From the IMG/VR virus record IMGVR_UViG_2537562173_000010: DNA of 36,398 nucleotides; one strand, 5' to 3'. The position numbers and the translations under genes are program-made. Positions 3,237 to 32,116 of the stretch are shown one piece after another. The notes beneath the pieces were generated by a model. The model saw only the letters and a list, made by a program, of their open reading frames with translations, made no database searches and was not told the DNA's origin. This DNA comes from a virus. Taxonomy: Duplodnaviria; Heunggongvirae; Uroviricota; Caudoviricetes. Positions within the stretch are counted from its first letter, which is position 1. Each line of letters opens with the position of its first letter.

Positions 3237-3296
3237 CGCGTAACACAATGAAATAAAAGGATTTATTTCTGGTCACGTCCACACATTGACCACATC

Positions 3297-3324
3297 GACA
3301 AAAAAGCCCCTCGACTGAGGGGCT
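3297..3324 (-). terminator. rho-independent terminator downstream of ogr
   Basis: 8-bp perfect stem AGCCCCTC / GAGGGGCT (3305-3312 / 3317-3324) followed on the minus strand by a T-run (A-run 3299-3305 on plus). Confidence 0.6.
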
Positions 3325-3336
3325 TCCTGTTTGTAA

Positions 3337-3555: not shown

Positions 3556-3636
3556 CGCGAGCACCTCTTCCGGTTTTGTTGATGGTGCTATTTTAGTTAA
3601 TTTATCCTTATAAAACAAATAGATAAAATAAAAACA

Positions 3637-4800
3637 TCACTCATCATCTTCTGTTTCGTACTCCACATCAGAAAGCCTGACCTCAAGCTCCAAGGACGTC
3701 GTGAAGCCGCTATTATTCAGAAAATGTGTCACCTTAGTGATTGTCCAGTCCTGCTCGTCTATGACGCGCTTAAAGCCTGACACTTTAACCGGTGTTTCCG
3801 TGTAAATATCTGCCCGACCGGTAGCCAGGCTGATGGAGAACTCCGCAACGCCCCGTTGCAGCTTATCCCACTTCGCCTGAGCGGCGCGCATGGCCTGCGC
3901 TTTCGTGGCATATACCGCGGTCAGGGCAAAAACATTGTCAGCCTCACCTGCCATGTATTCACCTTCGCGCGCTTCCGGTACTTTTGGCGCTTTCTTCTGC
4001 GTGACTGGTTTCGCTTTCGGGTGCTCCAGTGCGCGCAGGTGTTTCTCTTTCTTTTTGCGTTTCAGTTTTACCTTCTGCTTTTGTGGCTTCGGGTCTTTGG
4101 TGTGTAACCACTTTGCCGTTACGCCGGTATAGGCTCCACGGTCAGCAATCGCAAAATGATGGCGGTCGCCGTCGCTGCGGGTGATGGTAATCTGCGGGAT
4201 TTTTTTACCGCTGGCCGTCACCCCCTGCCCCGCCTTGAGAAACAACAGTTTTCCCATTTTTACCGACACCTCACCGCCGTTGCGTTCAGCAAGGCGGGTC
4301 AGGAATTTTGCATCAGACTCCTGCGACTGGTCGATGTGCGGGATTTTAATTCCGGCCAGTGACGGAGCGACACTGGCTTCCAGCCTGTTACGGGAGGCTA
4401 TCGCTTCAACAATCGCACCGAGCGTGGTGTCATGCCAGGAGCCTTCACGGCGGGAATTGAGCGTCCCGCGAAAATCTGCACTCCGGGCGCGGATGGTGAC
4501 CACATCCGGTGCGCCCCGGTGTTCAACCTCATCAACGGTAAATTTCCCTTTGCATACCAGGGCAAAACCTTTCCAGCCGATATACACCGTCAGGACAGCG
4601 CCACGAACCGGCAGCCCGACCTGCCCGTCGGCATCGTTCAGTTCAATATCAAGCTGGTCAGCCTCAAAGCCCCGGTTATCCGTCAGGGTCATGCTCATCA
4701 GACGGTCGCTGATATTGCCGGTAATATCCCTGTTGTCGAGCATCAGCATGTAATCCGGCGTCAGCGTACTGCCTGCATCAAATGTCAGTGCATCCAGCAT
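3637..4800 (-). CDS. D: tail protein D
   Basis: 387 aa, the P2 gpD length, in the D position next to ogr. Confidence 0.85.
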   Translation of the reverse strand: MLDALTFDAGSTLTPDYMLMLDNRDITGNISDRLMSMTLTDNRGFEADQLDIELNDADGQVGLPVRGAVLTVYIGWKGFALVCKGKFTVDEVEHRGAPDVVTIRARSADFRGTLNSRREGSWHDTTLGAIVEAIASRNRLEASVAPSLAGIKIPHIDQSQESDAKFLTRLAERNGGEVSVKMGKLLFLKAGQGVTASGKKIPQITITRSDGDRHHFAIADRGAYTGVTAKWLHTKDPKPQKQKVKLKRKKKEKHLRALEHPKAKPVTQKKAPKVPEAREGEYMAGEADNVFALTAVYATKAQAMRAAQAKWDKLQRGVAEFSISLATGRADIYTETPVKVSGFKRVIDEQDWTITKVTHFLNNSGFTTSLELEVRLSDVEYETEDDE

Positions 4801-5279
4801 TATCCCGCCCCCGTCATATCCGTGAATTTAGTCGCCATACTGCCAGCCTTACCGATGAGCGATTCTGCCTGTTTACCGATATCGCCATAAAGCGCGGCCA
4901 GTGATTCATCAACGCGGGTGAGCGACAGCGTAAAATCAATTTTCCGGGGTGTGCCGTCTGCAAAGAAAATACTCCCTGTTTCACTCACCCTGCTGATGAC
5001 ATACATGCCGTAAATCATGCCGGTGCCATCCAGCAACGGCCACGCCCGGCCTTCCTCAGCCATCAGCCTGAGCGTGGTCATCGTCAGCTTGCCGCCGGTC
5101 AGTTCGGGATAAAGCACACCGGCAAGCGTGATATTTTCCTCGCCAACACCGAGAAACTGAAAGGCATCCCGTTTGCCGATACGGGAATTTGACGCCCAGC
5201 GATAATCTGATTCACGCTGCATGGTCTGGTGTGGCAGCGTCTGGCGCATAAAAACAAACATACCTAACGCGAGCATCAT
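4800..5279 (-). CDS. U: tail protein U
   Basis: 159 aa, the P2 gpU length and position. Confidence 0.85.
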   Translation of the reverse strand: MMLALGMFVFMRQTLPHQTMQRESDYRWASNSRIGKRDAFQFLGVGEENITLAGVLYPELTGGKLTMTTLRLMAEEGRAWPLLDGTGMIYGMYVISRVSETGSIFFADGTPRKIDFTLSLTRVDESLAALYGDIGKQAESLIGKAGSMATKFTDMTGAG

Positions 5280-5293
5280 TTTTCGTCACCTCC

Positions 5294-7741: not shown

Positions 7742-8161
7742 TCGTGTTTCCGCTTCGCCTGAGCGCCTTTTCGCGCCATGTGATGAGTTCGGTCAGGCTC
7801 ATGGGATACAGTTCTGATGGCGGCCAGTGAAATATCACTGCCACATCCGCCATCAGGTCATCGACCGACAGATTTTTCGGAAGCGTCACTGCACCGAGTT
7901 CGGCGACAAAAAACCGACCACCTTACCGGCCAGCGCCACAAGGTCAGGCAGTTCCAGCGCGGCGACTTCCTGCTCGGTCAGCATCGGTGCCGTCATGCGC
8001 GGCAGCACCTTAATCAGTGCATCGACTTCGGAGTTCGCGACCGCAGCCAGACTGACACCGCGCAGCGTCCCGGCATTAGGTTTCATCAGCGTGACCTGTT
8101 CGATAACCTGCTCACCACGCTTGACCGGATTGTCCAGGGTAATCACATTTTCTTTGTTCAT
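7734..8161 (-). CDS. tail assembly chaperone E' (E+E' product of a programmed -1 frameshift)
   Basis: Slippery heptamer T-TTT-TTG (minus strand; plus coordinates 7907-7913) inside codons GGT-TTT-TTG of E. The -1 frame stays open to a TAA at 7734-7736, overlapping the T start. Confidence 0.7.
7886..8161 (-). CDS. E: tail assembly chaperone E
   Basis: 91 aa, the P2 gpE length. The ORF ends ...GKVVGFLSPNSVQ and contains the slippery run. Confidence 0.85.
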   Translation of the reverse strand: MNKENVITLDNPVKRGEQVIEQVTLMKPNAGTLRGVSLAAVANSEVDALIKVLPRMTAPMLTEQEVAALELPDLVALAGKVVGFLSPNSVQ

Positions 8162-9941: not shown

Positions 9942-10045
9942 CCGTTTAACTCCGTGGTTAATGGGTACAACTATTTTCTGTTGTGCAGAGCATAAGACGC
10001 TATTTGACCTGGCTGGTCAGTGGATGAAACAACAGATAAAGAAAA

Positions 10046-10064
10046 GGCGGGCAATTCGCCCGCC
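10046..10064 (-). terminator. hairpin terminator between the cargo island and FI
   Basis: Perfect 7-bp stem GGCGGGC / GCCCGCC with loop AATTC; on the minus strand it is followed by TTTTCTTTATCTG. Confidence 0.5.
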
Positions 10065-10120
10065 TGTCCTGATTTGTACTCACTCATTTTCCGCCTGACA
10101 ATTTACATAGCCCAAATGCT

Positions 10121-10144
10121 ATCAAACCTGACAGTCTGCTTTGA
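10121..10144 (+). repeat. site A: 23-bp near-palindromic repeat on the left flank of the cargo cassette
   Basis: ATCAAACCTGACAGTCTGCTTTGA; 21/23 identical to site B at 12431-12454 in direct orientation. Internally an imperfect palindrome (TCAAAC...CTTTGA). Confidence 0.65.
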
Positions 10145-10271
10145 GCGAAAAGTGGACATTAGAGTTACAAAAGCAAGTTTAAATCATCCAAAATATTACA
10201 ATGTCCTTATCTATCTGATATCGTTATGATAAAAAGCTCCTGAATATAATCGATAGTAGGTGGTTATTTCC

Positions 10272-10649
10272 ATGAAATCAATTTTAGAGGTCTTTACTCA
10301 AGGAAATACTAAAGAAAAACTGGCTGTTATCGCCGATCTCACAACCATTGCGGGAATATCGATTGCAACTATTATTGCTGGTTTGTTAACCCTAGTTGCA
10401 AAAACAGATAAACTAGATGTTGGAAATCTGTTTGGAGTTGTCATAATATCTCTGCTCGGATTGGCTGGTGTTTGCTGTTTTGTGGCCTTATTTATTTGGG
10501 TTATAACCCAAATGTCTAAACCATGGGGAACACCTCGGGGGGTTCAGCCCTTAGTTAAGTGTGCTATTTCCCTTATCTTTATCTGTATGTTTTTGCTGGC
10601 TGTCTTTACATTTTATGAGTTTATTTCTTCGATGAGCATACGCTATTGA
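10272..10649 (+). CDS. small integral membrane protein (about 125 aa, 3-4 predicted TM helices)
   Basis: ATG at 10272 with AGGTGG RBS 9 nt upstream (the ORF track starts at GTG 10260). Highly hydrophobic, AT-rich, in the Z/fun position and oriented opposite to the tail genes. Confidence 0.55.
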   Translation: MKSILEVFTQGNTKEKLAVIADLTTIAGISIATIIAGLLTLVAKTDKLDVGNLFGVVIISLLGLAGVCCFVALFIWVITQMSKPWGTPRGVQPLVKCAISLIFICMFLLAVFTFYEFISSMSIRY

Positions 10650-10671
10650 ATATAAAATCAGCCCCCATAAC

Positions 10672-11256
10672 TTAAAAGAGACCTTCTATATCGACTTCAA
10701 TGCCCAAATAACGGACTGTGCTTTCCAGTTTCTTATGGCCCAACAGAAGTTGGATCACCCGGAGACTCTTGGTTTTCTTGTAGATTAAGTAAGGTTTTGT
10801 TCTTCTCATGGAATGTGTGCTGTACAGCGAATCTTCGAGACCAAGCTTTTCTACCCACCCATGAAAAATTCGGTTGTATTGCCGGGTTGATATATGGTGG
10901 GTAGTTCCGACCCGAGAGCGGAACAGGAAGCCTTTACTATGCCAGTTGCCGAGCTTTATCAATGCAGTAACCGCTTCCCTTGTCCCTTTGGTTATCTCAA
11001 ATTGGACAGGGCTGCCGGTTTTCTGTTGCAACACCGTTGCTCTGCTTGAGACAGAACTGCCATATGCAGCATCTGATACTTTGAGTTTGACCAAATCACA
11101 GCCCCGTAGCTTAGTGTCCAAAGCCATGTTGAACAGAGCTAGATCGCGTGTTTTACCTTCCAACTCAAGTCTAATCCGGATCCCCCAGATATGAAATATC
11201 TGAAGTGGCCTTTTTTGACCGATGGTACGGTCTTTATTCCACGGTGACGTTTTCAT
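10672..11256 (-). CDS. small tyrosine recombinase, FimB/FimE-like (catalytic domain only, about 194 aa)
   Basis: Tyrosine-recombinase boxes: TKLRGCDLVKLKVSD (box I Arg), HSMRRT (H-x-x-R), LLGHKKLESTVRYLGIE (catalytic RY). No N-terminal core-binding domain. Start taken at internal Met MKTSPWNK with GGAG RBS; the ORF track's 228-aa extension is rejected. Confidence 0.75.
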   Translation of the reverse strand: MKTSPWNKDRTIGQKRPLQIFHIWGIRIRLELEGKTRDLALFNMALDTKLRGCDLVKLKVSDAAYGSSVSSRATVLQQKTGSPVQFEITKGTREAVTALIKLGNWHSKGFLFRSRVGTTHHISTRQYNRIFHGWVEKLGLEDSLYSTHSMRRTKPYLIYKKTKSLRVIQLLLGHKKLESTVRYLGIEVDIEGLF

Positions 11257-11362
11257 ATTCAAATCTCCTGCAATGTGGGAGATTTGAGTATGGTTGTCTC
11301 TCAAGAGCGAAAATAAGTCAACTATCACTAGTTGTTGCGCATGTACGTATTCTGTCAATTAA

Positions 11363-12205
11363 TTATTGACAATCATCAATTCTGGAATGATCAAAATCAT
11401 CATATCGAATTATAGTCTGGTTGACTGTATCTATTGTTGGTGTCATTTCTGTTATAATATCCTGATAACCTAAAGAGTTAAATACATTTACTAAGGCCTC
11501 ACACCGAAGGGCCGTAGCAATTACAAAATTATAAATTGCCAGCCGTTTATTTTCTTGTTTAACTGCAAGAATGAATTCGATAGCAGTATTTTCATCACTT
11601 TGGATTGCATTATATAGAGATACTATATTTACCATATCATCAGAGAATGTATGTATTGAATCACAAAGGGGAACGTAATGGGCATGATAGTGTGTTTCCC
11701 AGCCAATTAATTCAAAAAGTCTTCTGGTTCCTGGATATTCAGGTGTATTTGGCCACAATCTATTAAATAGATCAGTTAGTTCTTTTCCCATGCGAATCCT
11801 TTCATTTGCTGCTGGATTAGTCATTCCTTTGGATTTTAAACACTCCAGCCACCGTTTTCCATTACTATGAACTAATTTCTTACTAGCCTTGAGTAATGCT
11901 TGTGCATTTTCGCCATCATCTATTGCTATATAAAATTGATTGGCAGCCTGTTCTATTATAACCCTAGCTAATACTTCCGATGCTGAAAAGGCTCCTATAT
12001 TCAAAGAAGAGATAGCCTGATTACTAAGTTCATTCAGTACATTAAAGTACTGTAAGACCATCAATTTTTGTTCCACACCCTTTAGGTTGTCTATTTTATT
12101 TTTATGCTCCTCAAATTTTGCATGGATATATTTATTTATCGCGGCTATTTTTTTTACATCTTCGTCAAGATCAAACGGGCAACGTCCAAACAATTCTTTT
12201 TTCAT
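11363..12205 (-). CDS. hypothetical protein (280 aa), AT-rich cargo
   Basis: ORF with strong RBS (AGGAGA 6 nt upstream of the ATG). Very AT-rich. No P-loop or nuclease motif I recognise. Co-oriented with and 106 bp upstream of the recombinase gene. Confidence 0.65.
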   Translation of the reverse strand: MKKELFGRCPFDLDEDVKKIAAINKYIHAKFEEHKNKIDNLKGVEQKLMVLQYFNVLNELSNQAISSLNIGAFSASEVLARVIIEQAANQFYIAIDDGENAQALLKASKKLVHSNGKRWLECLKSKGMTNPAANERIRMGKELTDLFNRLWPNTPEYPGTRRLFELIGWETHYHAHYVPLCDSIHTFSDDMVNIVSLYNAIQSDENTAIEFILAVKQENKRLAIYNFVIATALRCEALVNVFNSLGYQDIITEMTPTIDTVNQTIIRYDDFDHSRIDDCQ

Positions 12206-12430
12206 ATATTTCTCCTGTTGTACAAGCTTCCATAAGTTGGCAGATTATACACTGAAGATTACCTATAAATAGCTGTGCGGGATAGCAGATCAGTGCAAGA
12301 AGTACAACCAAGTGAACTGTGCGTATTCAGATACCTGGCCTAACGTTCGCGATAGCCGTCCCCTGCACGAAGCCATATATTAGATGTATTAGCTCAGACC
12401 TTATCTGACAGGTTGAGTAGGTAGAATCTA

Positions 12431-12454
12431 ATCAAAGCTGACAGTCTGGTTTGG
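12431..12454 (+). repeat. site B: 23-bp near-palindromic repeat on the right flank of the cargo cassette
   Basis: ATCAAAGCTGACAGTCTGGTTTGG; shares the exact core CTGACAGTCTG with site A in direct orientation. Confidence 0.65.
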
Positions 12455-12550
12455 ACTGTGAGTTCAACCGATGGATGCAACACACAGCGATCTACGGACA
12501 TTACTAGCATAGCTGTGTATTAATCATCGGGAAGCAGGTCAGTCCGCTCC

Positions 12551-13157: not shown

Positions 13158-15887
13158 TTACACCTGTGCGACGTTATACCATGTGCCATTGATGTATTTT
13201 TGTATTGGTCTGAATACTGCGGGGTCATCACCATCGACTTCACCGACAATACCAAGCCCGGTAATTACGTGCCCTGCTTTCTCATACATCACCCCTTTCT
13301 GCATGGTCTGGACAACACGTGTGCCAAGTCTGACATCTCTCACATAGCGGGAATCAAAGTTACCGTAATCCGAGGGATTAACACGCCCCGTAATATTTAT
13401 GGTTTTATTACTTTGAACGCTTCCGGAGACAAAGCGCATAACATGGACGCTATTAGCATAAACATCCAGATTACCATCACCATTTTGTTTAAAGCCCGTG
13501 TCATTATCACCCAAAACAATCGAATTACCGCCAAGAGCACTGGATGTTCCTATACCCAGAGCACCATTCAATTGACCACCAGATAACGGCAGTGCACCGA
13601 CATCTCCCGCTGTAGGTTTTCGCGTTGTGGTATAAAACTCAGACCAGTCAGCCTCGAATCCGTAACCGTCACGAGCAGAACGATAAAAAATACCACCGTT
13701 CTTATAATTAACGCGAAACTGGGCGGCGGGACAACTTCCTTCCCCGATATTAAAATGAAGAATTAACGTTGATGCCCCACCAATAGTTGCGTTATAGGCT
13801 CCGCTACTCCAGTTCCATCCAACGGCTTTATCATTCGCAACGGTGTCTCCTGTTTTTCCTGAAGCAAATGCACCAATATTTTTCGGCGTCAGGTTAATAT
13901 CTGATGTTCCATCAAACGAAACGTTATTAATTTTACGGGCTGTTTTCAGCTTTGTTGCTGTCGCCGCATTGCCGGACAGTTCACCAGAAAGGCCAGCACT
14001 GAATGTCTGTTTCGCGCCCCATGTCTGGGCTTCGTCGATAATTGGCACACGTCTTGTCGTGATCGTGCGGCTTCCCGGATTTCCTGAAATACGCACCATA
14101 AAAAAGCGGTAGTTGGCTTTACTTACAGTGCTGCGCCATACATGCATTGAGCGTCCCGAACCAGAATCATCACTCGGACCGACTGAGATGTTTATCAGGT
14201 TGCCATCAATGACGCCCCAGTCCATACCGTCGGGAATATTGGTCATGTTATCCAGCCGAACGGTTATCAGACTGCCCGGCACAAAATCGTATGTCTGCCA
14301 GTCCAGGCTGGTGAGTTTTGCCACTGCGCCACCGATACCCAACTCTAACGGCAAAGAGTTTGAGTTATAAATCTGTCGCCACTCCCCCCACGCGTTAAAT
14401 GAGCCACCAAGAAACACTCGCTCATATAAACGGTCTTTTGTAGCTGCGCTGGTTCCTGTGGTCGTGTAACGTTGCAAAACATAGACACCATCCTTGCGCC
14501 TGATGACTTCCAGAAAACCAGACTGCCCCTGGATTGGGGTGTGGGTCGCTTTGCCTGTCACACTGTAAATACCTGGAGACATCAAATCATCCAGGTCATC
14601 CTCATAGAAGGTACTACTGGTCTGATAACCAATTTGGATCCAGTCTTCCCACTGTGGATTTTCTGCATCCCATTTGGCTGTCAGGCCGCGAATATACATA
14701 GTCCCGTTACGGGTTGTATAACGCTGTGTGCGTCCATATAGCCCACCTTCGAAAATTTCCAGAATGCCCTGCGCGTCTCCTCCCTGCTCGGGGTAATGTC
14801 GTTCAAAAGAAGCTATTGCTGAACTGCTGTTTCTCCATAGACCTAAATGTTCTGCGCCACCGAGAGAGTTAAGGTCAATGGTCGTACTTAGAGCTCGCGT
14901 TACAGCCTGAACATGGCGCCATGCTCCCCATGGTCCATCATTACCATTCCATGTTCCAATGAGTTTGCGGATATACAAATTTCCGTCACGTGTGGTATAG
15001 CGTTGCGTGCCTGCAAAATTGCCGCCAGTAAAAACCTCAAGCACACCGACAGCATTATCTTCAGGGAAGTTTTTCTCCAGTGTTGCGTTGGTGGACGTTG
15101 CTTTAGACCAGATACCTGAATAAGCCTTAACAGAACCAAACGTATTCAGATCAGCATCAACCGGCATTTCGCCATTGTTTTTCATAAACGTCAGGCTGGT
15201 AACGCCAACATTGTCCAGAAAAGCTGATTTATCCTGGATATCTGCACCATTCTGATTTTTCGCCAGACGTGAATTTGCGTTGTCATTTGCTGCCTTGACC
15301 GCTTTTGGCGTTGCTGCCAATGACTCACTGGTGCTGTTTGTTGCACTGCTTAACTGAGTAAAACCTTTTTCTGTCAGCGTGGCGTCAGGATGGCGGCGGG
15401 ACTGCTCATGCTCTGCGATTTTGTCATCGACGTAATCCTGCGTCGCCATCACTGTGCTGGCATCAATACTCAGCTCAACGGACGCCACGTTACTGACAAT
15501 AATAACCATGCGGCAGGTCTGCGCACGCCCGGAGCCTTCAGCCAGTTCTGGCTTATAGCTTTCAGCCATGTTGGATACCGCAATCAGTGTTCCGGCATCG
15601 TCATACAGACCAAGCTCACGCATCCAGAAGCCGCCCACTTCGGGCGGTACAACCAGTTCAGCCACGATATAGTTTTTATTCTTGTTATCCACGCTGACTT
15701 TATTCAGAGCGTGACGCCAGACCTCATGCACCAGTTTCGTCTGACCGGCATCCGGCACCGGCAATTTGCCATTACCGTCACCCACGGCCATTGCAGACAG
15801 GGTTACTTTTTTCCCGCCGGGGACAGTGGCGGCTGCCAGCTTTGCGGCTCCGGCAGTAGTGATAACGGTTTTAAATTTCGTGCTCAT
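13158..15887 (-). CDS. H: tail fibre protein H (expanded, 909 aa)
   Basis: N-terminus MSTKFKTVITTAGAAKLAAA... is P2 H-like. Three internal repeats of the ...QRYTTR.G..YIR... module. Longer than P2 H (about 669 aa from memory). Confidence 0.85.
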   Translation of the reverse strand: MSTKFKTVITTAGAAKLAAATVPGGKKVTLSAMAVGDGNGKLPVPDAGQTKLVHEVWRHALNKVSVDNKNKNYIVAELVVPPEVGGFWMRELGLYDDAGTLIAVSNMAESYKPELAEGSGRAQTCRMVIIVSNVASVELSIDASTVMATQDYVDDKIAEHEQSRRHPDATLTEKGFTQLSSATNSTSESLAATPKAVKAANDNANSRLAKNQNGADIQDKSAFLDNVGVTSLTFMKNNGEMPVDADLNTFGSVKAYSGIWSKATSTNATLEKNFPEDNAVGVLEVFTGGNFAGTQRYTTRDGNLYIRKLIGTWNGNDGPWGAWRHVQAVTRALSTTIDLNSLGGAEHLGLWRNSSSAIASFERHYPEQGGDAQGILEIFEGGLYGRTQRYTTRNGTMYIRGLTAKWDAENPQWEDWIQIGYQTSSTFYEDDLDDLMSPGIYSVTGKATHTPIQGQSGFLEVIRRKDGVYVLQRYTTTGTSAATKDRLYERVFLGGSFNAWGEWRQIYNSNSLPLELGIGGAVAKLTSLDWQTYDFVPGSLITVRLDNMTNIPDGMDWGVIDGNLINISVGPSDDSGSGRSMHVWRSTVSKANYRFFMVRISGNPGSRTITTRRVPIIDEAQTWGAKQTFSAGLSGELSGNAATATKLKTARKINNVSFDGTSDINLTPKNIGAFASGKTGDTVANDKAVGWNWSSGAYNATIGGASTLILHFNIGEGSCPAAQFRVNYKNGGIFYRSARDGYGFEADWSEFYTTTRKPTAGDVGALPLSGGQLNGALGIGTSSALGGNSIVLGDNDTGFKQNGDGNLDVYANSVHVMRFVSGSVQSNKTINITGRVNPSDYGNFDSRYVRDVRLGTRVVQTMQKGVMYEKAGHVITGLGIVGEVDGDDPAVFRPIQKYINGTWYNVAQV

Positions 15888-24344: not shown

Positions 24345-25786
24345 ATGACCATCACCACAGACACCACTCTTTTACACGACCCGCGTCGTCAGGCGGCGCT
24401 GCTGTACTGGCAGGGATTTTCCGTGCCGCAGATTGCCGCCATGTTGCAGATGAAACGCCCGACAGTGCAGAGCTGGAAACAGCGCGACGGCTGGGACAAC
24501 GTTGCCCCCATCAGCCGTGTCGAAATGAGCCTGGAAGCGCGGCTGACCCAGCTCATCATCAAACCGCAGAAAACCGGCGGGGGGTTCAAGGAAATTGACC
24601 TGCTGGGACGCCAGATTGAACGACTGGCACGGGTAAATCGTTACAGCCAGACCGGCAACGAGGCAGACCTTAATCCGAACGTCGCTAACCGCAACAAAGG
24701 CGGGCGGCGCAAACCGAAAAAAAATTTTTTCAGTGACGAGGCCATCGAAAAGCTGGAGCAGATTTTCTTTGAGCAGTCTTTCGACTATCAGTTGCACTGG
24801 TATCGCGCCGGGCTTGAGCACCGCATCCGCGATATCCTGAAATCCCGCCAGATTGGCGCGACGTTTTATTTTTCCCGCGAGGCGCTGCTGCGCGCCCTGA
24901 AAACCGGCCATAACCAGATTTTTCTGTCGGCCAGTAAAACGCAGGCGTATGTGTTCCGCGAATACATCATCGCCTTTGCCCGGCTGGTTGACGTTGACCT
25001 GACCGGTGACCCGATTGTCCTGGGCAATAACGGCGCAAAACTGATTTTTCTCGGCACCAACTCCAACACCGCACAGAGCCATAACGGCGACCTGTACGTC
25101 GACGAGATTTTCTGGATCCCGAATTTTCAGGTACTGCGTAAGGTGGCATCAGGTATGGCCTCACAGAGTCACCTGCGCTCGACCTATTTCTCCACCCCGT
25201 CCACGCTGGCGCACGACGCCTACCCGTTCTGGTCAGGTGAACTGTTCAACCGGGGACGCGCCAGCGCCGCCGAACGCGTGGAAATCGACGTCAGTCATAA
25301 CGCCCTTGCCGGTGGGCTTCTCTGTGCGGACGGCCAGTGGCGGCAGATTGTCACCATTGAGGACGCCCTGAAAGGTGGCTGCACGCTGTTCGACATTGAA
25401 CAGCTCAAACGCGAAAACAGCGCCGACGATTTTAAAAACCTGTTCATGTGTGAATTTGTTGACGACAAGGCGTCGGTGTTCCCGTTCGAGGAGCTGCAAC
25501 GCTGCATGGTCGACACGCTGGAAGAATGGGAAGACTATGCGCCGTTTGCCGCCAATCCGTTCGGCTCCCGCCCGGTCTGGATTGGTTACGACCCGTCACA
25601 CCGTGGCGACAGCGCCGGATGAAGACCATGACCAGCAGCGGACGCAGCGCCACTTATGAGGCCAGCCGCAGCGAGGAAGCCAGCCACGCCGACCTCGCCT
25701 GGGCGACCATGCACGCCCTGTTAAATGAGCCACTCACCGCCGGTATCAGCACCCCGCTGACATCCACCATTCTGGAGTTTTACTGA
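24345..25786 (+). pseudogene. P: terminase large (ATPase) subunit P, internally deleted and frameshifted
   Basis: ATG 24345 (GAGG RBS) to the stop overlapping the Q start spans only 1442 nt, against about 1770 expected for 590-aa gpP. Reading frame breaks at about 25620 (...YDPSHRGDSAG*), and the C-terminal ...KTMTSSGRSATYEASRSEEASHADLAWATMHALLNEPLTAGISTPLTSTILEFY is in another frame. Confidence 0.65.
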
Positions 25787-26820
25787 TGAGCAAGAAAAAA
25801 GGGAAAACACCGCAACCTGCGGCAAAAAAAATGACCGCCAGCGCCCCGAAAATGGAGGCATTCACCTTTGGTGAGCCGGTGCCGGTACTCGACCGCCGTG
25901 ACATTCTGGATTACGTCGAGTGCATCAGTAACGGCAGATGGTATGAGCCGCCGGTCAGCTTTACCGGTCTGGCGAAAAGCCTGCGTGCTGCCGTGCATCA
26001 CAGCTCACCGATTTACGTTAAACGCAATATTCTGGCCTCGACATTTATCCCGCATCCGTGGCTTTCGCAACAGGATTTCAGCCGCTTTGTGCTGGATTTT
26101 CTGGTGTTCGGTAATGCGTTTCTGGAAAAGCGTTACAGCACCACCGGTAAGATCATCAGACTGGAAACCTCACCGGCAAAATATACCCGCCGTGGCGTGG
26201 AGGAGGATGTTTACTGGTGGGTGCCGTCCTTCAACGAGCCGACACCTTTCGCGCCCGGTTCCGTGTTTCACCTGCTGGAGCCGGATATTAATCAGGAGCT
26301 GTACGGCCTGCCGGAATATCTCAGCGCCCTTAACTCTGCCTGGCTGAATGAGTCGGCCACGCTGTTCCGCCGCAAGTATTACGAAAACGGCGCGCATGCC
26401 GGATACATCATGTACGTCACCGATGCCGTGCAGGACCGCAACGATATCGAAATGCTTCGCGAAAACATGGTGAAGTCGAAAGGCCGCAATAACTTTAAAA
26501 ACCTGTTTCTCTATGCCCCACAGGGGAAAGCCGACGGCATTAAAATTATCCCGCTCAGTGAAGTGGCGACGAAGGACGATTTTTTTAATATCAAAAAAGC
26601 CAGCGCCGTTGACCTGCTGGATGCGCACCGCATCCCCTTTCAGTTGATGGGCGGCAAGCCGGAAAACGTCGGGTCTCTGGGTGATATTGAGAAAGTGGCA
26701 AAGGTCTTTGTCCGCAATGAACTTATCCCGCTACAGGACAGGATTCGGGAAATAAACGGCTGGCTCGGTCAGGAGGTCATCCGCTTTAAAAACTACTCAC
26801 TGGACACTGACAACGGCTGA
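25786..26820 (+). CDS. Q: portal protein Q
   Basis: 344 aa, the P2 gpQ length. ATG overlaps the P stop (TGATG). Confidence 0.9.
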   Translation: MSKKKGKTPQPAAKKMTASAPKMEAFTFGEPVPVLDRRDILDYVECISNGRWYEPPVSFTGLAKSLRAAVHHSSPIYVKRNILASTFIPHPWLSQQDFSRFVLDFLVFGNAFLEKRYSTTGKIIRLETSPAKYTRRGVEEDVYWWVPSFNEPTPFAPGSVFHLLEPDINQELYGLPEYLSALNSAWLNESATLFRRKYYENGAHAGYIMYVTDAVQDRNDIEMLRENMVKSKGRNNFKNLFLYAPQGKADGIKIIPLSEVATKDDFFNIKKASAVDLLDAHRIPFQLMGGKPENVGSLGDIEKVAKVFVRNELIPLQDRIREINGWLGQEVIRFKNYSLDTDNG

Positions 26821-26989: not shown

Positions 26990-27008
26990 GTGCTTTCCCC
27001 GCCTCGCC
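26990..27008. other. cos site (19-nt cohesive-end sequence)
   Basis: GTGCTTTCCCCGCCTCGCC is the reverse complement of GGCGAGGCGGGGAAAGCAC, which I recall as the P2/186 cohesive end. It lies about 170 bp past Q, as in P2. Confidence 0.6.
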
Positions 27009-27323
27009 CGCCCGCTTCATGGGGCGGTTTTAATGCAGTTGCATGATGAAACTGAAATCACATCAGCACTGACCGAAACTGACAAAAAGAATAGTATCTG
27101 ACACATGCAAAAACACGCACTTAATATACGCCTATCTATAGCTCCTACAGGATTGTCAAAAAACGACCAACTCGTCATAGCGTAAACACATTTGGCTCAA
27201 CGAACACTTACGTTATATGCCTCTTGAACATATCAAAGTCTTAAGGTAGATCTTTACCACTAAGTGGCTATATTAAGCTGCTTTTTTACATACAATAAAA
27301 GCTTTATCGTATGAGGCATAAAA

Positions 27324-27875
27324 ATGGAACTTAGATTAAAAAATGTTACCAGTTATAAGAAAGACGCCTTCACAATACTGAATCTTGAAAAAAGAGTAAA
27401 CATACTATACGGCCAAAATGGTTGTGGCAAATCTACCATTTCAAATTATTTCTACGACTCTACACACACAGATTATAACGAGTGTGAATGTACCCTTCTT
27501 GACAATTACAAACCTCTTGTTTACAACACTAAATTTATTGAAGATAACTTCTATAATGCACAGGAACAAAAAGGTGTTTTTACATTAAGTAAAGAAAATG
27601 CAGATATTGAAAAACAATTAATTGAAAAAGAAGCAATTAAACAGCAACTCACAGAGCAATATAGACAAAAAAAAGGAGTGTTATTGAAATTAGAAGCAGA
27701 AATGGAAAAAAAAGAAAATGAATACATCGAATCGATCTGGAAAAAAACAGAACCAATCAGAAACTCTGTACTAAAAACCTTAATGAAAGGTAAAGTTGGC
27801 TATAAAAGACCTTTTTTTGAGATGATAAAATCATCCTCACCAATCACCTTTATTAATTTAAATGATATATATTAA
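27324..27875 (+). CDS. N-terminal fragment (183 aa) of a split Rad50/SMC-like ABC ATPase
   Basis: Walker A GQNGCGKST (codons 30-38, 27411-27437), then coiled-coil-like K/E-rich sequence. GAGG RBS 7 nt upstream of the ATG. Ends ...SPITFINLNDIY* inside the 19-bp duplication. AT-rich. Confidence 0.7.
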   Translation: MELRLKNVTSYKKDAFTILNLEKRVNILYGQNGCGKSTISNYFYDSTHTDYNECECTLLDNYKPLVYNTKFIEDNFYNAQEQKGVFTLSKENADIEKQLIEKEAIKQQLTEQYRQKKGVLLKLEAEMEKKENEYIESIWKKTEPIRNSVLKTLMKGKVGYKRPFFEMIKSSSPITFINLNDIY

Positions 27876-27889
27876 TTTAAATGATATAG
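27852..27889 (+). repeat. exact 19-bp tandem duplication at the junction of the two ATPase ORFs
   Basis: ATTAATTTAAATGATATAT (27852-27870) followed by ATTAATTTAAATGATATAG (27871-27889), 18/19 identical. Removing one unit fuses the two ORFs in frame (...SPITF-INLNDIAKEY...). Confidence 0.85.
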
Positions 27890-29559
27890 CAAAAGAATAC
27901 TCTATACTATTAGAAAATAGAAACAATGAAACCGCATTAATAACTCCTTTACATCCATATACCCCATCAATTGATGATGTAAATACATTAGCAACACCTA
28001 TAATAGATACAAGCAATAGCTATTTATCAGAAACCATTAATAAACTTCATAATCTTGACTGGGTAAAAAAAGGTAAAGAACATTATTTAGACGGTTCTAC
28101 ATGTCCGTTTTGTCAGGAAAAAACTATTAGTCACGAATTTTTAAATGCCCTTAAATCAATATTTGACGAAAGTTATTCAAAGAAAGTAAAACAGCTCTCA
28201 GATATAAAGTCAGTTTATGAGAAAAATACCATATATCATTTTAACGAAATACAAAACAATATATCATCATGTGCACTAATCAATGAGAAAGATAAAGAGA
28301 ACATTATTTCCAATATTAAAATATTGCAAAACATTGCAGAAAAAAATTTAATAAACATTATTGATAAGATCAACAATCCATCAACATGCGTTACATTAGA
28401 AATTGATAAAGAACTAGAAAATCATGTTCAGGAAAGCATAGGCGCTGTTAACAAGAAAATAAGAGACATAAATGATAAGGTTAAAAAACTCAAAGAGTAT
28501 GAGAATAAAATCGGAAAACAAGTTTGGGGGGCTCTCCATGCTTTTTGCAGCGATGATTTAGAGAATTTATCCAAACACAAAGAAAAATTCTTTGATATCA
28601 AAAAGAAAGTTCATGATGAATTAAATAATATTGAGCAACAAGGAAAAGAAAATAATCTCACAATAAAAGCATTGCGAGATAAAATATCTAACATTGATTC
28701 TACGATAGACTCAATAAACACCCATTTAAAAAATCTAGGGATCTCTGGTTTTTGTATTGAAAAACATGCAGAAAGAAAAGATATGTACATTATATCTCGA
28801 CCAGGGCATACAAAAAACCAAAATGTTTATAGATCTCTTAGCGAAGGTGAAAAAACACTAATAACGTTTCTTTATTTTTTAGAGTGCTGTAAAGGTAAAA
28901 CCGATAAAAATGATACCGATAGCAGGGATATTTTTATTGTTATTGACGATCCAATATCTAGTCTATCGCAAAACTATGTCTACGACATCGCATCAATTAT
29001 TCATCACCACATTATAAAAAATGAATTAACAAAGAAGGTATTAATCCTTACTCACAATCTTTATTTCTTTCATGAACTTATTAAGCTATCTCCTAAAAGC
29101 AGAGAAGACAAACTATTTAAGAAAAACTATTATCTAGGTAGAGTAACGAAAAATGATTTTAGTATAATTACTGAAATACAAAAAAACAGCATACAGAATG
29201 AATATCAATCTTTGTGGCAAATATTAAAAGATGCAAAAGATGGCAAAGCAAACAAAATCATAATACCGAATATTATGAGAAACATACTAGAATATTATTT
29301 TGCATTTGTTCATAGAACAGATGCTCTACAAGATGAATTAACAAAGTTGGCACGCGACGATAGCAACAGTGATTTCAAAGCATTCTACAGATACATTAAC
29401 AGAGGTTCTCACTCTGATGCGGTAAATATTACTGATATGGGCGACATAGACCCAGATAAATACCTAAAACAATTGAGAACAATATTTTCAGCTACTGGTG
29501 ACGAAATGCATTATTTAAAAATGATGGACGAACTAGAAGAGGAAAACGTTACCGCTTAG
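27862..29559 (+). CDS. C-terminal fragment (565 aa) of the split Rad50/SMC-like ABC ATPase, with a possible HEPN-like C-terminal domain
   Basis: CPFC (28102-28113) within the coiled-coil region; ABC signature-like LSEGEK; Walker B DIFIVIDDP with D-loop SSLS; H-loop LILTHN. The C-terminal 170 aa contain R-x3-E (RNILE) and RYINRGSH. AT-rich. Confidence 0.7.
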   Translation: MIYINLNDIAKEYSILLENRNNETALITPLHPYTPSIDDVNTLATPIIDTSNSYLSETINKLHNLDWVKKGKEHYLDGSTCPFCQEKTISHEFLNALKSIFDESYSKKVKQLSDIKSVYEKNTIYHFNEIQNNISSCALINEKDKENIISNIKILQNIAEKNLINIIDKINNPSTCVTLEIDKELENHVQESIGAVNKKIRDINDKVKKLKEYENKIGKQVWGALHAFCSDDLENLSKHKEKFFDIKKKVHDELNNIEQQGKENNLTIKALRDKISNIDSTIDSINTHLKNLGISGFCIEKHAERKDMYIISRPGHTKNQNVYRSLSEGEKTLITFLYFLECCKGKTDKNDTDSRDIFIVIDDPISSLSQNYVYDIASIIHHHIIKNELTKKVLILTHNLYFFHELIKLSPKSREDKLFKKNYYLGRVTKNDFSIITEIQKNSIQNEYQSLWQILKDAKDGKANKIIIPNIMRNILEYYFAFVHRTDALQDELTKLARDDSNSDFKAFYRYINRGSHSDAVNITDMGDIDPDKYLKQLRTIFSATGDEMHYLKMMDELEEENVTA

Positions 29560-29587
29560 GCCGCATATTATCGTTTTGGGTAAGAAC

Positions 29588-29607
29588 GACGGTGCTTACG
29601 CACCGTC
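29588..29607. terminator. hairpin between the convergent ATPase and A genes
   Basis: Perfect 8-bp stem GACGGTGC / GCACCGTC with loop TTAC. No clear T-tract on either strand, so the terminator call is weak. Confidence 0.35.
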
Positions 29608-29782
29608 TCCCAACGCCCAAAGCGGTAGCGGTTGTACTGGCGTACATTCACTAGCTTTAACATGAGGCAATCTCCATGCCAGCACTATTGTTGCCAATAG
29701 CAGCCTTTATACCCTTTGTACAAAGCTAATACCAAGAGTAATGCAAAGTAGATGTCCCAAGCGGTAACGGGGCTATTCTATG

Positions 29783-32116
29783 TCAAACACAGAAAAAATC
29801 AAAGCGCCCTATGAATCCCCCCCAACCATCAGCGACCGGATACGTGAATTTTTTCCCGTCATAATTTACGGTCGCTCCACGCGCCAGCGCCTCAAGCTCC
29901 CATCGCTGCGGCATGATACCGTTCTGAGCAAGGTCAACGCGGATACGGGTGATTTGCAATCGTTCAGACCTGGTCAGTCTGGCAGATGGTGCAATTTCAT
30001 GCGGTTTTAACGGGCTTCCGTTTCTTTGCTGACGGTTTGGCGTTCTCAGGTCGTATTTTAATGCGCCCCTGAGCGCCCTCACGACCTCCGGTTCATTCCA
30101 TTCAATAACACCGTCATCAACCAGATTAAGCACTGCTGCGGCGTGCTCAGAAGGTGTGGGAGCCGGTAACGAAGTATCACCACCGGTGAGCTTTCCACAG
30201 TTATTGACAGGACTCCGAGGCGCGGCGATGCCGCTTTTTAAAGTCAAAGGCTCAACGACCGGAACTTTCGGCACAATGCGCCAGTCCGTCGTTCTGGTGA
30301 TATGAATATGACGCGCGCCGAGATGCGGCGCGTAAATGCCGACCACTCTCTCGACTTCTTCCTCGTACTCGTTAACGTCATCCGACGGGCTACGGGCAAC
30401 CCTGACAGTCTGACAATCGCGCGGGACATTTGCCCCCCCCTGCGCGCTGATATACAACGCAAAATCACCACTGTCTGCGGCAGCGCGAGCAGCCTCGACG
30501 CGTTCGTCAAACTCATCAGCAATACTGACGCCGCGAGGCAATTTGCGTAGTTCACGGTAAGCCCCCATTGTCGGCAGGCCAACCGTTTTAAATTGCGGAA
30601 TTCGCCACGTTGACGCCCATGCGGTAACAGCCGCAGCAGTATCTTTCAGCGGCCTGCCGGTATCATTATCGAGCTGACCATCCAGTGCATAGCCATCGAT
30701 GTTTTTTGAGATGTATTTTGCGATATACCCCGCAGCACCGCCCCGGTTAAGATGTTTTGCCTGAAAACGGTTTCGCGCGGCTCCTCTTTCGTCGCCATCC
30801 TCTTTGAGCGCATAGCGACGCATGATTTCGATAATCTGGTTACGCTGGCGTGGATTACAAAAAAGCATCATATGCCAGTGCGGCGTTCCGTCGTGGTGTG
30901 GCTCGACGACACGCAAACCGTAGACCTGTAAATCATTATCCTTGAATGCCGTGCGCATCAGGCTCCAGATATGGCAGAGATAACGCTGCGCATCCTTTGG
31001 ATTAAATGCCTCATCGTTCCAGCCGTGATTTAGCTGGACGGTTTTACTTTCGCCTTTTCCGACCTGACGTGTCGGGTGATACTTTGACGGCGCGGTAAGC
31101 GTGATAAACATCCCCACATCACCCTCTGCGGCGGCGTAACGCTCAATACCGGCAATGGTGTTCATCAGCTCCATCCGGCGAATTTCAGGATTAGAAATAC
31201 TGCCCATCACCTTACTGATAAGGTCGATGCGTTCGCCGGTTTCCCTGTTTTCAAGGTCACACGATTTAAGAAATTCCAGATTTGCCTGGCGGCGTGCACG
31301 CACATCACGAATGGCATGTTTACTGGCATAAGGTGAACGGTCTTTATTGACCTCCCCGACAGCAATCAGTAACGCCTCATGCCAGCGCATACGCTGGCCT
31401 TTAAGCTGACTAATCCACCACTCATCGTTAAACAGGCGGGCAATGGCAGAATATGCCTGCCTCGTGGTCATCTGTCCTTTACGGTATTTTTTCCAGTAGA
31501 GCGGGGAAATATTGAAAGCACGTGCAGCGCCAGCAACATGACCATAGAGGTGAGCCTGCGCCTCATCCGTAAACAGCGATTCTTTTTCGCCATGCGCATC
31601 CACCCAGGCATCGCAGAGTTCCTCATACATCATGAAAAGCTGCGATGAGATACGGGCGGCAAACTTTTTCAGCTCCTTATCATTCATCCCCGGCAGACGC
31701 GCATAATGGTCACGCTCTGCCAGAAACAGCAACGACGCGTCGGTGTTCATTTCATGGCGCTGATTCACACGCTCAATGCGCGGCCATAAACGACGCTGAA
31801 AAGTGGATGTGAGGAAATAAAACCCGTGCACCGGGCTTTTATTGCGCCGGATGTAGTCATAGCGTGAAGTAAACAGCGAGCGCAAAAAGTAAGGCAGGCG
31901 GTTAATCGTGGATAAAACACCTTGCACCTGACGCATCTCGTCACGTGTAAGGGGTCTTTCGCGCCCGACGGCCTCGCGTGGCGCGTTCCATGCATAAGCA
32001 CCGGTAAACGTCTTACCGGTGCCTGCGGTAAATGCTGACGGAGGGACAAAACGCCCGGAGGCTTTAACGGCCATATGAGCCAAAAGCCTCTGAACAACGC
32101 TTGCTGAGTTGCTCAA
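29783..32116 (-). CDS. A: replication initiation protein A (rolling-circle nickase)
   Basis: 777 aa in the P2 gpA position (P2 gpA is about 761 aa from memory); large basic protein adjacent to the early-operon ORFs. Confidence 0.85.
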   Translation of the reverse strand: MSNSASVVQRLLAHMAVKASGRFVPPSAFTAGTGKTFTGAYAWNAPREAVGRERPLTRDEMRQVQGVLSTINRLPYFLRSLFTSRYDYIRRNKSPVHGFYFLTSTFQRRLWPRIERVNQRHEMNTDASLLFLAERDHYARLPGMNDKELKKFAARISSQLFMMYEELCDAWVDAHGEKESLFTDEAQAHLYGHVAGAARAFNISPLYWKKYRKGQMTTRQAYSAIARLFNDEWWISQLKGQRMRWHEALLIAVGEVNKDRSPYASKHAIRDVRARRQANLEFLKSCDLENRETGERIDLISKVMGSISNPEIRRMELMNTIAGIERYAAAEGDVGMFITLTAPSKYHPTRQVGKGESKTVQLNHGWNDEAFNPKDAQRYLCHIWSLMRTAFKDNDLQVYGLRVVEPHHDGTPHWHMMLFCNPRQRNQIIEIMRRYALKEDGDERGAARNRFQAKHLNRGGAAGYIAKYISKNIDGYALDGQLDNDTGRPLKDTAAAVTAWASTWRIPQFKTVGLPTMGAYRELRKLPRGVSIADEFDERVEAARAAADSGDFALYISAQGGANVPRDCQTVRVARSPSDDVNEYEEEVERVVGIYAPHLGARHIHITRTTDWRIVPKVPVVEPLTLKSGIAAPRSPVNNCGKLTGGDTSLPAPTPSEHAAAVLNLVDDGVIEWNEPEVVRALRGALKYDLRTPNRQQRNGSPLKPHEIAPSARLTRSERLQITRIRVDLAQNGIMPQRWELEALARGATVNYDGKKFTYPVADGWGGFIGRFDFFCV

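What the first reader, a model, noticed from the sequence alone, without database searches (positions are those of the whole stretch)
27324..29559. Split 738-aa Rad50/SMC-like ATPase with CxxC hook and a putative HEPN-like C-terminus at the tin/old hotspot
Between replication gene A and cos, where P2 carries tin and old, there is instead a visibly AT-rich gene. Its reconstructed product has Walker A GQNGCGKST, a long coiled-coil-like insert containing CPFC, an ABC signature-like LSEGEK, Walker B DIFIVIDDP and an H-loop (LILTHN). The roughly 170-aa C-terminal extension contains R-x3-E (RNILE) and RYINRGSH, reminiscent of HEPN-type RNase motifs. This architecture resembles RloC/PrrC-type anticodon nucleases, which have a Rad50-like head with zinc hook and a C-terminal ACNase. 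The resemblance is by motif only, so it may be a divergent or distinct single-protein abortive-infection system. As it stands the gene is interrupted.
Basis: partly seen in the sequence, partly recalled or inferred. Interest (0 to 1): 0.8.

Follow-up and report, generated by a model that had tools for sequence, protein, structure and literature searches.

The report
Broken prophage RloC-type tRNA nuclease gene
This is a copy, broken by a 19-base duplication, of an already catalogued prophage gene for an RloC-like suicide enzyme (a Rad50-like DNA-sensing ATPase fused to a tRNA-cutting nuclease), sitting in the known defence-gene slot of a P2-like prophage; it is a real and well-read feature, but not a new one.

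Summary
ORFs 27324-27875 and 27862-29559 are one gene split by a perfect 19-bp tandem duplication. Removing one unit gives a 738-aa protein identical to RefSeq WP_000423308.1 of E. coli APEC O1. The gene lies 316 bp from cos, between portal gene Q and replication gene A, in the published P2 defence hotspot.

Anantharaman et al. (2013) already described a prophage-borne "PrrC/RloC/APECO1_4465" ABC-HEPN group. Its prototype is an APEC O1 protein, very probably this one.

The split allele is on record once (E. coli cloneA_i1). The same prophage has also lost 331 bp of its terminase gene. I read the locus as a pseudogene of a known but never phage-tested defence gene. Interest is low.

The parts
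26990..27008 (-). P2-type cos site (19-nt cohesive-end sequence). It marks the cos-proximal hotspot.
   Evidence: Exact match to GGCGAGGCGGGGAAAGCAC (sequence recalled from memory); 0.02 matches expected by chance.
27313..27316 (+). Shine-Dalgarno-like GAGG, 7 nt upstream of the ATG.
   Evidence: Read directly from the sequence.
27324..27875 (+). N-terminal fragment ORF (183 aa): native residues 1-182 plus one frameshifted residue. It contains the N-lobe of the ABC head, with Walker A at 27411-27434, and the start of the coiled coil.
   Evidence: Identical to EHG00693.1 of E. coli cloneA_i1.
27851..27869 (+). First copy of the 19-bp tandem duplication.
   Evidence: Intact alleles have only one copy.
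27870..27888 (+). Second copy of the 19-bp tandem duplication. The extra copy causes the frameshift.
27862..29559 (+). C-terminal fragment ORF (565 aa): 9 residues encoded within the duplicated repeat units, then native residues 183-738. It lacks Walker A. It starts at an ATG inside the repeat with no Shine-Dalgarno sequence, and overlaps the end of ORF1 by 14 nt.
   Evidence: Identical to EHG00694.1.
27588..28737 (+). Helical/coiled-coil insert between the two lobes of the ATPase head (about residues 89-465 of the repaired protein).
   Evidence: The AF2 model has long helices at 90-141 and 403-448 and many helices in between. Best fold hits are Rad50 and SMC heads with coiled coils.
28102..28113 (+). 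CPFC: putative zinc-hook motif (C254, C257).
   Evidence: Both cysteines are invariant in 67/67 homologues; P255 is kept in 63/67 and F256 in 65/67.
28837..28851 (+). ABC signature LSEGE (residues 499-503).
   Evidence: G502 and E503 are invariant; L, S and E are kept in at least 65/67.
28933..28950 (+). Walker B / D-loop start FIVIDD (residues 531-536).
   Evidence: D535, D536 and P537 are invariant.
29047..29058 (+). H-loop LTHN (residues 569-572; linchpin His571).
   Evidence: T570 and H571 are invariant.
29176..29559 (+). C-terminal all-helical domain (residues 612-738) plus the stop codon: the putative HEPN-type anticodon nuclease domain.
29278..29292 (+). R646-N-I-L-E650: the Arg and Glu of the putative catalytic triad.
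   Evidence: R646 is kept in 67/67; E650 in 65/67 (Asp in the other 2); N643 is invariant. Matches the RloC rule R-X3-E.
29407..29412 (+). S689-H690: the putative catalytic His with the preceding Ser. R683-x6-H690 also fits the HEPN Rx4-6H pattern.
   Evidence: S689 is kept in 65/67, H690 in 66/67, R683 in 56/67. There are 39 residues between E650 and H690, inside the published 36-52 window.

Best explanation
The locus is an inactivated copy of a single-gene, prophage-borne anticodon nuclease of the RloC type. It belongs to the ABC-ATPase-HEPN group 'PrrC/RloC/APECO1_4465' (Pfam AAA_13, PADLOC candidate PDC-S06) and is carried as cargo in the cos-proximal defence hotspot of a P2-like prophage, in the slot where P2 has old and tin. 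Inferred mechanism of the intact 738-aa protein, by homology with Geobacillus and Acinetobacter RloC: two lobes of a Rad50-like ABC ATPase head are separated by a helical or coiled-coil insert that carries a CPFC zinc hook. The head and hook keep the C-terminal HEPN-type RNase silent. DNA ends or breaks that appear during phage infection or genotoxic stress, together with ATP hydrolysis, switch the nuclease on. It then cuts tRNA anticodon loops through R646, E650 and H690. Translation stops and the infection aborts, which protects the lysogen population and the prophage from competing phages. In this window a 19-bp tandem duplication after codon 176 shifts the frame. The P-loop lobe (183 aa) is separated from the rest (565 aa, with no ribosome-binding site), so the gene is most probably dead. 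What is shown: the gene structure, the duplication, family membership, motif conservation, the Rad50-like predicted head, and the hotspot location. What is inferred: tRNA as the substrate, DNA ends as the trigger, anti-phage activity, and loss of function.
Confidence: 0.7

Rival explanations
1. The 19-bp duplication, and perhaps the 331-bp terminase deletion, is an assembly or sequencing artefact of the draft genome. In that case the real strain carries the ordinary intact gene.
For: The allele is on record on a single contig of one draft assembly, E. coli cloneA_i1 (EHG00693.1/EHG00694.1). Everything else in the 2.7-kb region is identical to APEC O1. Other 'split' annotations of this gene in complete genomes are homopolymer errors.
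Against: A perfect 19-bp tandem duplication in non-homopolymer sequence is not a typical read-error type. It is shorter than a read, so assemblers do not create it. The same prophage shows a second independent lesion, which fits real decay. An unrelated real disruption of the same gene, by ISEc12, exists in the E. coli type strain.
Confidence: 0.12
2. The split gene still works. Either the 183-aa P-loop lobe and the 565-aa remainder are both made and reassemble into a two-chain Rad50-like head, or the duplication is a reversible off-switch, lost by slippage, for a toxic gene.
For: Rad50 head lobes are naturally separated by the coiled coil, and from general knowledge they can be co-expressed as two chains. 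The break falls at residue 177-183, just after the first long helix, and not inside a lobe. ORF2's ATG overlaps the end of ORF1 by 14 nt. Tandem duplications are genetically unstable.
Against: There is no Shine-Dalgarno sequence before the ORF2 ATG. The allele occurs in one assembly only, so there is no sign of recurrent switching. All 44 complete genomes with this allele lack it. The prophage is decaying elsewhere. In GkaRloC the ATPase must act in cis with the hook to activate the nuclease.
Confidence: 0.05
3. The intact protein is a defence ATPase-nuclease, but it does not work like RloC. It may have a different RNA target (mRNA or rRNA) or a different trigger (a phage protein rather than DNA ends), as a separate 'APECO1_4465' family.
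For: [quoted passage not shown] Identity to the most RloC-sized relatives found (P0114-P0118) is only 17-21%. A 2025 preprint discusses an E. coli PDC-S06 protein as predicted antiphage by PADLOC and treats it as a possible true positive of its own predictor. I infer from this that DefenseFinder does not call it, but the paper does not say so. HEPN RNases vary widely in substrate.
Against: All RloC-defining motifs and their spacing are conserved, including Ser before His and the hook. IMG-type annotation places it in the RloC orthologous group. Like RloC, it stands alone.
Confidence: 0.2
4. It is a housekeeping or phage-lifecycle SMC/Rad50-type DNA-repair or DNA-handling ATPase, and not a defence toxin.
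For: The best structural matches are Rad50 and SMC heads. One UniRef name in the family is 'DNA repair ATPase'.
Against: There is no Mre11/SbcD-type partner next to it. The C-terminal domain carries an invariant R...E...SH set typical of the PrrC/RloC nuclease. The gene is strongly AT-rich cargo in a hotspot where genes are swapped between otherwise near-identical prophages. It is dispensable: broken here and in the type strain.
Confidence: 0.03

Closest known systems
RloC (wobble nucleotide-excising anticodon nuclease; Geobacillus kaustophilus and Acinetobacter baylyi proteins characterised by Kaufmann's group)
   Same: Same overall architecture and similar size: ABC-ATPase head, helical or coiled-coil insert with a CXXC hook, and a C-terminal R-X3-E-X36-52-(S)H triad. 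Both are stand-alone genes without a linked R-M system, and both fall in Pfam AAA_13. One source gives this exact protein the RloC activity name.
   Different: It is only distantly related in sequence to RloC-sized relatives (about 20% identity) and shorter (738 aa; GkaRloC's triad sits at 692/696/737). It is carried by a P2-like prophage hotspot. Activity, substrate and trigger are untested.
APECO1_4465 family of prophage ABC-HEPN proteins (Anantharaman et al. 2013, Biology Direct 8:15)
   Same: The prototype is an E. coli APEC O1 protein found in prophages. The repaired protein here is 100% identical to the APEC O1 prophage protein WP_000423308.1, so this is very probably the same protein. 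Its predicted role is exclusion of other phages, independent of R-M.
   Different: I could not confirm the identity of gi 117623091 with the tools; the link rests on strain, context and my recollection of GI numbering. The window's copy is frameshifted.
PrrC (E. coli tRNA-Lys anticodon nuclease of the prr locus)
   Same: An ABC-ATPase N-domain plus a C-terminal ACNase with an Arg-Glu-His triad. The PADLOC PrrC model matches residues 490-730 at E 1e-12.
   Different: PrrC is about 400 aa with no coiled-coil or hook insert, is always embedded in a type Ic R-M locus that silences it, and is triggered by the T4 Stp peptide. None of these features is present here.
P2 Old (ABC ATPase + TOPRIM), the gene that occupies this slot in P2 itself
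   Same: Same genomic slot and orientation. Both are single proteins with an ABC-ATPase sensor fused to a nuclease effector. A 2026 preprint (10.64898/2026.07.10.737580) reports that Old is an abortive tRNase triggered by DNA substrates, which is the same logic as RloC.
   Different: The effector here is a helical HEPN-type domain and not TOPRIM. The ATPase has a long Rad50-like insert with a hook. No sequence relationship was found beyond the ABC fold.
PADLOC candidate system PDC-S06
   Same: Full-length match to model PDLC04886 (E 1e-254, residues 2-730 against profile positions 4-724 of 727).
   Different: PDC-S06 is only a computational candidate. In the papers I could search, I found no experimental test of it.

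Membership tests
RloC (definition of Davidov & Kaufmann 2008, PMC2610378) | [quoted passage not shown] | tested here: met
   G30-S37, LSEGE 499-503, FIVIDD 531-536 and H571 are present. K36, G502, E503, D535, D536 and H571 are invariant in 67 homologues.
RloC (definition of Davidov & Kaufmann 2008, PMC2610378) | Largely helical coiled-coil insert in the ATPase domain with a central CXXC zinc-hook motif | tested here: met
   A helical insert of about 375 residues lies between the head lobes. C254 and C257 are invariant in 67/67. Rad50 heads with coiled coils are the best fold matches. Zinc binding and the apical position of the motif were not testable.
RloC (definition of Davidov & Kaufmann 2008, PMC2610378) | C-terminal Arg-X3-Glu-X36-52-His triad, with Ser often before His | tested here: met
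   R646-X3-E650-X39-S689-H690. Conservation is 67/67, 65/67, 65/67 and 66/67. Spacing is 36-39 in most homologues.
RloC (definition of Davidov & Kaufmann 2008, PMC2610378) | Anticodon-nuclease activity that excises the wobble nucleotide, switched on by DNA ends plus ATP hydrolysis | not testable with these tools
   Needs biochemistry. The mechanism is known only for GkaRloC and AbaRloC.
RloC (definition of Davidov & Kaufmann 2008, PMC2610378) | Direct sequence relationship to the characterised Geobacillus or Acinetobacter proteins | not tested
   Their sequences were not obtainable here. Indirect evidence: the shared Pfam AAA_13 family and the source name 'wobble nucleotide-excising tRNase' on this exact protein and on relatives.
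PrrC | A protein of about 400 aa with an uninterrupted ABC-ATPase N-domain (no coiled-coil or hook insert) | tested here: not met
   The protein is 738 aa with a 375-residue insert carrying CPFC.
PrrC | Embedded in a type Ic restriction-modification (hsd/prr) locus | tested here: not met
   The neighbours are the phage portal gene and replication gene A. There are no hsd genes.
PrrC | Match to a PrrC sequence profile, including the nuclease domain | tested here: inconclusive
   The full protein hits the PADLOC PrrC model at 1e-12 over residues 490-730, but the C-terminal domain alone gives no PrrC hit.
HEPN superfamily (Anantharaman et al. 2013) | All-alpha-helical bundle domain | tested here: met
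   The AF2 domain model has pLDDT 82 and seven helices.
HEPN superfamily (Anantharaman et al. 2013) | Conserved Rx4-6H motif | tested here: met
   R683-x6-H690, with R683 kept in 56/67 and H690 in 66/67. The strictly invariant Arg is R646, which lies on an earlier helix.
HEPN superfamily (Anantharaman et al. 2013) | Structural similarity to solved HEPN domains | tested here: inconclusive
Pfam AAA_13 / PADLOC PDC-S06 | Full-length profile match above the curated threshold | tested here: met
   AAA_13 scores 374 bits against a cutoff of 36, over residues 17-716. PDC-S06 scores 845 bits.
OLD / Gabija GajA / PARIS (ABC ATPase + TOPRIM) | A TOPRIM nuclease domain or partner protein | tested here: not met
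   There is no TOPRIM hit in Pfam or PADLOC. Only a weak AriA match on the ATPase part (5e-6) was found, and there is no second gene.
Lamassu (LmuB SMC-like ATPase with LmuA effector and LmuC) | A multi-gene operon with a separate effector | tested here: not met
   The LmuB model matches only partially, at 2e-10. The gene stands alone.

The most novel reading that the evidence does not exclude
The 19-bp duplication is not simple decay. Either it is a reversible, slippage-prone off-switch for a toxic prophage tRNase, or it yields a working two-chain enzyme in which the P-loop lobe is supplied in trans. Either case would be a new way of regulating a Rad50-like defence ATPase.
Probability: 0.05. 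Interest if true: 0.5.

Novelty: already known. Interest (0 to 1): 0.22.

Why it matters
The practical value is modest. The reading shows that the P2 cos-proximal slot, which in P2 holds Old, can instead hold an RloC-type enzyme built on the same logic: an ABC-ATPase DNA sensor fused to an RNase. Old was recently reported to be a DNA-triggered abortive tRNase, so the hotspot appears to swap functionally analogous cassettes.

The intact allele is common (793 contigs) and occurs in pathogenic E. coli lineages such as APEC O1. In the papers I could search, it has never been tested against phages. It is therefore a cheap, well-defined candidate for validation as a defence system and for studying how a Rad50-like head controls a HEPN nuclease.

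The broken allele is one of the apparently rare defence pseudogenes in P2 hotspots. A 2026 preprint reports that only about 2% of P2 pseudogenes resemble defence genes. Here the pseudogene sits in a prophage that has also lost part of its terminase gene, which gives a small data point on how such cargo decays.

Tried and rejected
- Sequence search of the full protein and of the C-terminal domain profile against PDB chains gave nothing meaningful.
- Foldseek of the C-terminal domain against the PDB returned only generic helical proteins, with a best E-value of 0.59.
- The PADLOC PrrC model run on the C-terminal domain alone gave no hit. The earlier PrrC match is therefore driven mainly by the ATPase C-lobe.
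- I tried to bridge to genuine PrrC through PrrC-sized hits of the domain profile in the 1.84-billion-protein library. Those hits were N-terminally truncated fragments of the same subfamily, plus one form lacking the insert.
- I looked for the APECO1_4465 sequence in the supplement of PMC3710099; it is not held. The exact-sequence look-up did not return that locus tag either.
- I checked whether the 'split' annotations in other complete genomes indicate recurrent inactivation. They are ±1 homopolymer indels and probably sequencing errors, so I rejected them as evidence.
- The promoter and terminator scan around the gene gave counts no higher than in shuffled sequence for promoters (13 against 12.2), so no promoter is claimed.
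- The phage-genome collection holds no close copy. The only hit is a 79%-identical partial match in Enterobacter phage ENT4.
- OLD, Gabija, Septu and Lamassu membership were considered and rejected: there is no TOPRIM or HNH domain and no partner gene.
Full report
**1. What is in the sequence**

On the + strand there are two overlapping ORFs, 27324..27875 (183 aa) and 27862..29559 (565 aa). They are separated by a perfect tandem duplication of the 19-bp unit TATTAATTTAAATGATATA, at 27851-27869 and 27870-27888 (Tandem Repeats Finder score 76, 100% matches).

Deleting one unit gives a single 2217-nt ORF of 738 aa. That protein is 100% identical to the annotated 'AAA family ATPase' WP_000423308.1 of E. 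coli APEC O1. Across the 2.7 kb from 27100 to 29800, the only difference from APEC O1 is the extra 19 bp.

The gene has 29.5% GC in a window of 49.8%. A GAGG lies 7 nt upstream of the ATG.

**2. Where it sits**

The P2 cohesive-end 19-mer, which I recalled from memory, matches exactly at 26990-27008. Portal gene Q is at 25786-26820 (+) and replication gene A at 29783-32116 (-). The APEC O1 copy shows the same P2-type order: terminase, portal, this gene, gpA, then on to cox, C and integrase.

This is the Q-to-A, cos-proximal hotspot that Rousset et al. 2022 showed to hold old/tin in P2 and many other defence cassettes in E. coli P2-like prophages (PMC9122126). A paralogue only 58% identical (P0034, 735 aa) occupies the same slot in another E. 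coli P2-like prophage (L005). More distant homologues in Serratia (65% identity) and Pseudomonas (32%) are stand-alone genes in chromosomal islands, with no restriction-modification neighbours.

**3. What the protein is**

- **Profile matches.** It matches Pfam AAA_13 (PF13166) over residues 17-716 at E 2e-111. It matches the PADLOC candidate single-gene system PDC-S06 at E 1e-254 over its full length, and the PADLOC PrrC model at 1e-12 over residues 490-730. It also matches an 'unknown function' phage orthologous group (phrog_2801) at near-identity. NCBIfam has no specific model for it.
- **Existing names.** Full-length homologues at 28-33% identity are named 'wobble nucleotide-excising tRNase' by their sources. 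That name is the RloC activity.
- **Published RloC definition.** Davidov & Kaufmann 2008 (PMC2610378) define RloC by ABC-ATPase motifs, a coiled-coil insert with a CXXC zinc hook, and a C-terminal Arg-X3-Glu-X36-52-His motif in which Ser often precedes His. Here these are G30-S37, LSEGE499-503, FIVIDD531-536, H571, C254PFC257 and R646-X3-E650-X39-S689-H690.
- **Conservation.** In an alignment of 67 homologues reaching down to 17% identity, K36, C254, C257, G502, E503, D535, D536, H571 and R646 are invariant. E650 (65/67, Asp in the other two), S689 (65/67) and H690 (66/67) are nearly so. The Glu-His spacing is 36-39 in most sequences.

**4. Predicted structure**

AlphaFold2 on the 67-sequence alignment gives mean pLDDT 84. 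The model shows a two-lobed alpha/beta head (residues 1-88 and about 466-611), long helices at 90-141 and 403-448 with a helical region between them, and a helical C-terminal domain.

Foldseek against the PDB puts Rad50 first (7zr1_C, E 9e-8; also 9q9h, 5da9, 3qkt), followed by SMC heads, Lamassu LmuB, AriA and PtuA. This supports the Rad50-like reading of the ATPase.

The domain is widespread. It occurs in 2,644 clusters at 50% identity in a 1.84-billion-protein library, 1,020 of them at E ≤ 1e-10. It is almost always at the C-terminus of 715-760-aa proteins, so the architecture is stable.

**5. Prior knowledge**

Anantharaman et al. 2013 list a HEPN family 'PrrC/RloC/APECO1_4465', fused to ABC ATPases. 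They say the group prototyped by APECO1_4465 (gi 117623091) of avian pathogenic E. coli 'is frequently found in ... integrated prophages' and may prevent infection by other phages independently of R-M systems.

The repaired protein here is identical to the APEC O1 prophage protein. By my recollection of the GI numbering of NC_008563, gi 117623091 would be about the 796th protein of that genome, which fits a gene at 0.926 Mb. It is therefore very probably the named prototype. I could not verify that with the tools.

PADLOC lists the family as a candidate, and a 2025 preprint mentions an E. coli PDC-S06 ATPase as a likely true defence protein. I found no paper that tests it. Within the library I could search, the family is known computationally and untested experimentally.

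**6. Most likely mechanism (inferred by homology)**

In GkaRloC the ATPase activates the nuclease, activation needs DNA, and zinc-hook mutations short-circuit the switch (PMC3458546). Linear DNA must stay bound for activity to continue, and DSB inducers activate RloC in vivo, cutting tRNA-Glu and tRNA-Gln in Acinetobacter (PMC3874168).

Transferred to this protein, the Rad50-like head and hook would hold the HEPN domain off. DNA ends generated during infection, plus ATP hydrolysis, would release it. Anticodon-loop cleavage would then stop translation and abort the infection.

A 2026 preprint reports that P2 Old, the usual occupant of this slot, is itself an abortive tRNase triggered by DNA substrates, and it lists RloC among DNA-integrity-triggered systems. 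The hotspot therefore seems to exchange cassettes with the same logic.

**7. State of this copy**

The frameshift separates the P-loop lobe (native residues 1-182) from everything else. ORF2 starts at an ATG inside the repeat with no Shine-Dalgarno sequence and overlaps the end of ORF1 by 14 nt.

- The two fragments are exactly EHG00693.1 and EHG00694.1 of E. coli cloneA_i1, and each exact sequence is on record on a single contig.
- Of the 5,426 complete E. coli genomes, 44 carry this allele and none has the duplication. Thirty-eight carry one intact 2217-bp ORF.
- Four are annotated as split. In the three I examined, the differences are ±1 indels in A, T or G homopolymers, which are probably long-read errors.
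- Two assemblies of the type strain ATCC 11775 have the gene cut by ISEc12 at about nt 1925, just before the R646 codon.
- The window's prophage also lacks 331 bp of terminase gene P, which truncates it from 590 to 425 aa.

Together this points to a decaying prophage with a dead defence gene. A 2026 preprint reports that defence pseudogenes are rare in P2 hotspots, so this is an uncommon but unremarkable case.

**8. Rivals**

- An assembly artefact is possible but unlikely, given the type of lesion. I put it at 0.12.
- A functional two-chain enzyme or a reversible switch cannot be excluded, but nothing supports it (0.05).
- A defence protein of this architecture with a different target or trigger from RloC is a real possibility (0.2), given the distance from the characterised enzymes.
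- A repair or housekeeping role is very unlikely (0.03).

**9. Verdict**

The feature is an already catalogued RloC-type ABC-HEPN prophage gene, present here as a pseudogene. Novelty is 'already known' and interest is low. The one useful lead is that the common intact allele is an easy, still untested candidate for validation as a defence system.

Noticed in passing
window 24345-25622 (junction 25621|25622): Terminase ATPase gene P lacks 331 bp compared with the APEC O1 prophage (L001 4192-4522). The ORF stops after 425 aa instead of 590, so the prophage is probably unable to package DNA.
   Followed up: partly
L009 (E. coli ATCC 11775, NZ_CP033092.2) 3001-7804: The same AAA_13 gene is interrupted by an IS21-family ISEc12 element at about nt 1925, immediately upstream of the R646 codon. 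This is an independent, real inactivation in the E. coli type strain.
   Followed up: partly
L002, L003, L004 (complete E. coli genomes): Copies of the gene annotated as two or three ORFs differ from the intact allele only by ±1 indels in A, T or G homopolymers. These are probably long-read sequencing errors and not biology.
   Followed up: yes
L005 6001-8208: A paralogue only 58% identical (735 aa, AAA_13) occupies the same portal-gpA slot in another E. coli P2-like prophage. At least two diverged alleles of this family circulate in the hotspot.
   Followed up: partly
protein P0229 (396 aa, from the representative library): This protein matches the PDC-S06 profile at its Walker A end and again from profile position 426 onward, but lacks the coiled-coil or hook insert. 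It is either a PrrC-like 'mini' form within the subfamily or an internal deletion.
   Followed up: no
window 10000-12500, - strand: This is a second low-GC island (36-43% GC), next to the 13158-15887 ORF that I take to be the tail-fibre gene. It holds a 228-aa tyrosine-recombinase-family ORF (10672-11358) and a 280-aa DUF5677 ORF (11363-12205). Neither has a PADLOC hit. It may be cargo of the second P2 hotspot (Z/fun position).
   Followed up: partly
window 1-1500: A low-GC (34-40%) segment at the left end encodes a 404-aa PcfJ-like protein (1-1215, - strand). It lies next to a peptidase U32 gene (1703-3064) and appears to be outside the prophage.
   Followed up: no
window 27262-27283: A weak terminator-like hairpin followed by a T-run lies about 40 nt upstream of the gene's start codon, between the best promoter-like site (27098-27127) and the ATG. 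Its significance is unknown, and promoter-like sites in the region are no more frequent than in shuffled sequence.
   Followed up: no
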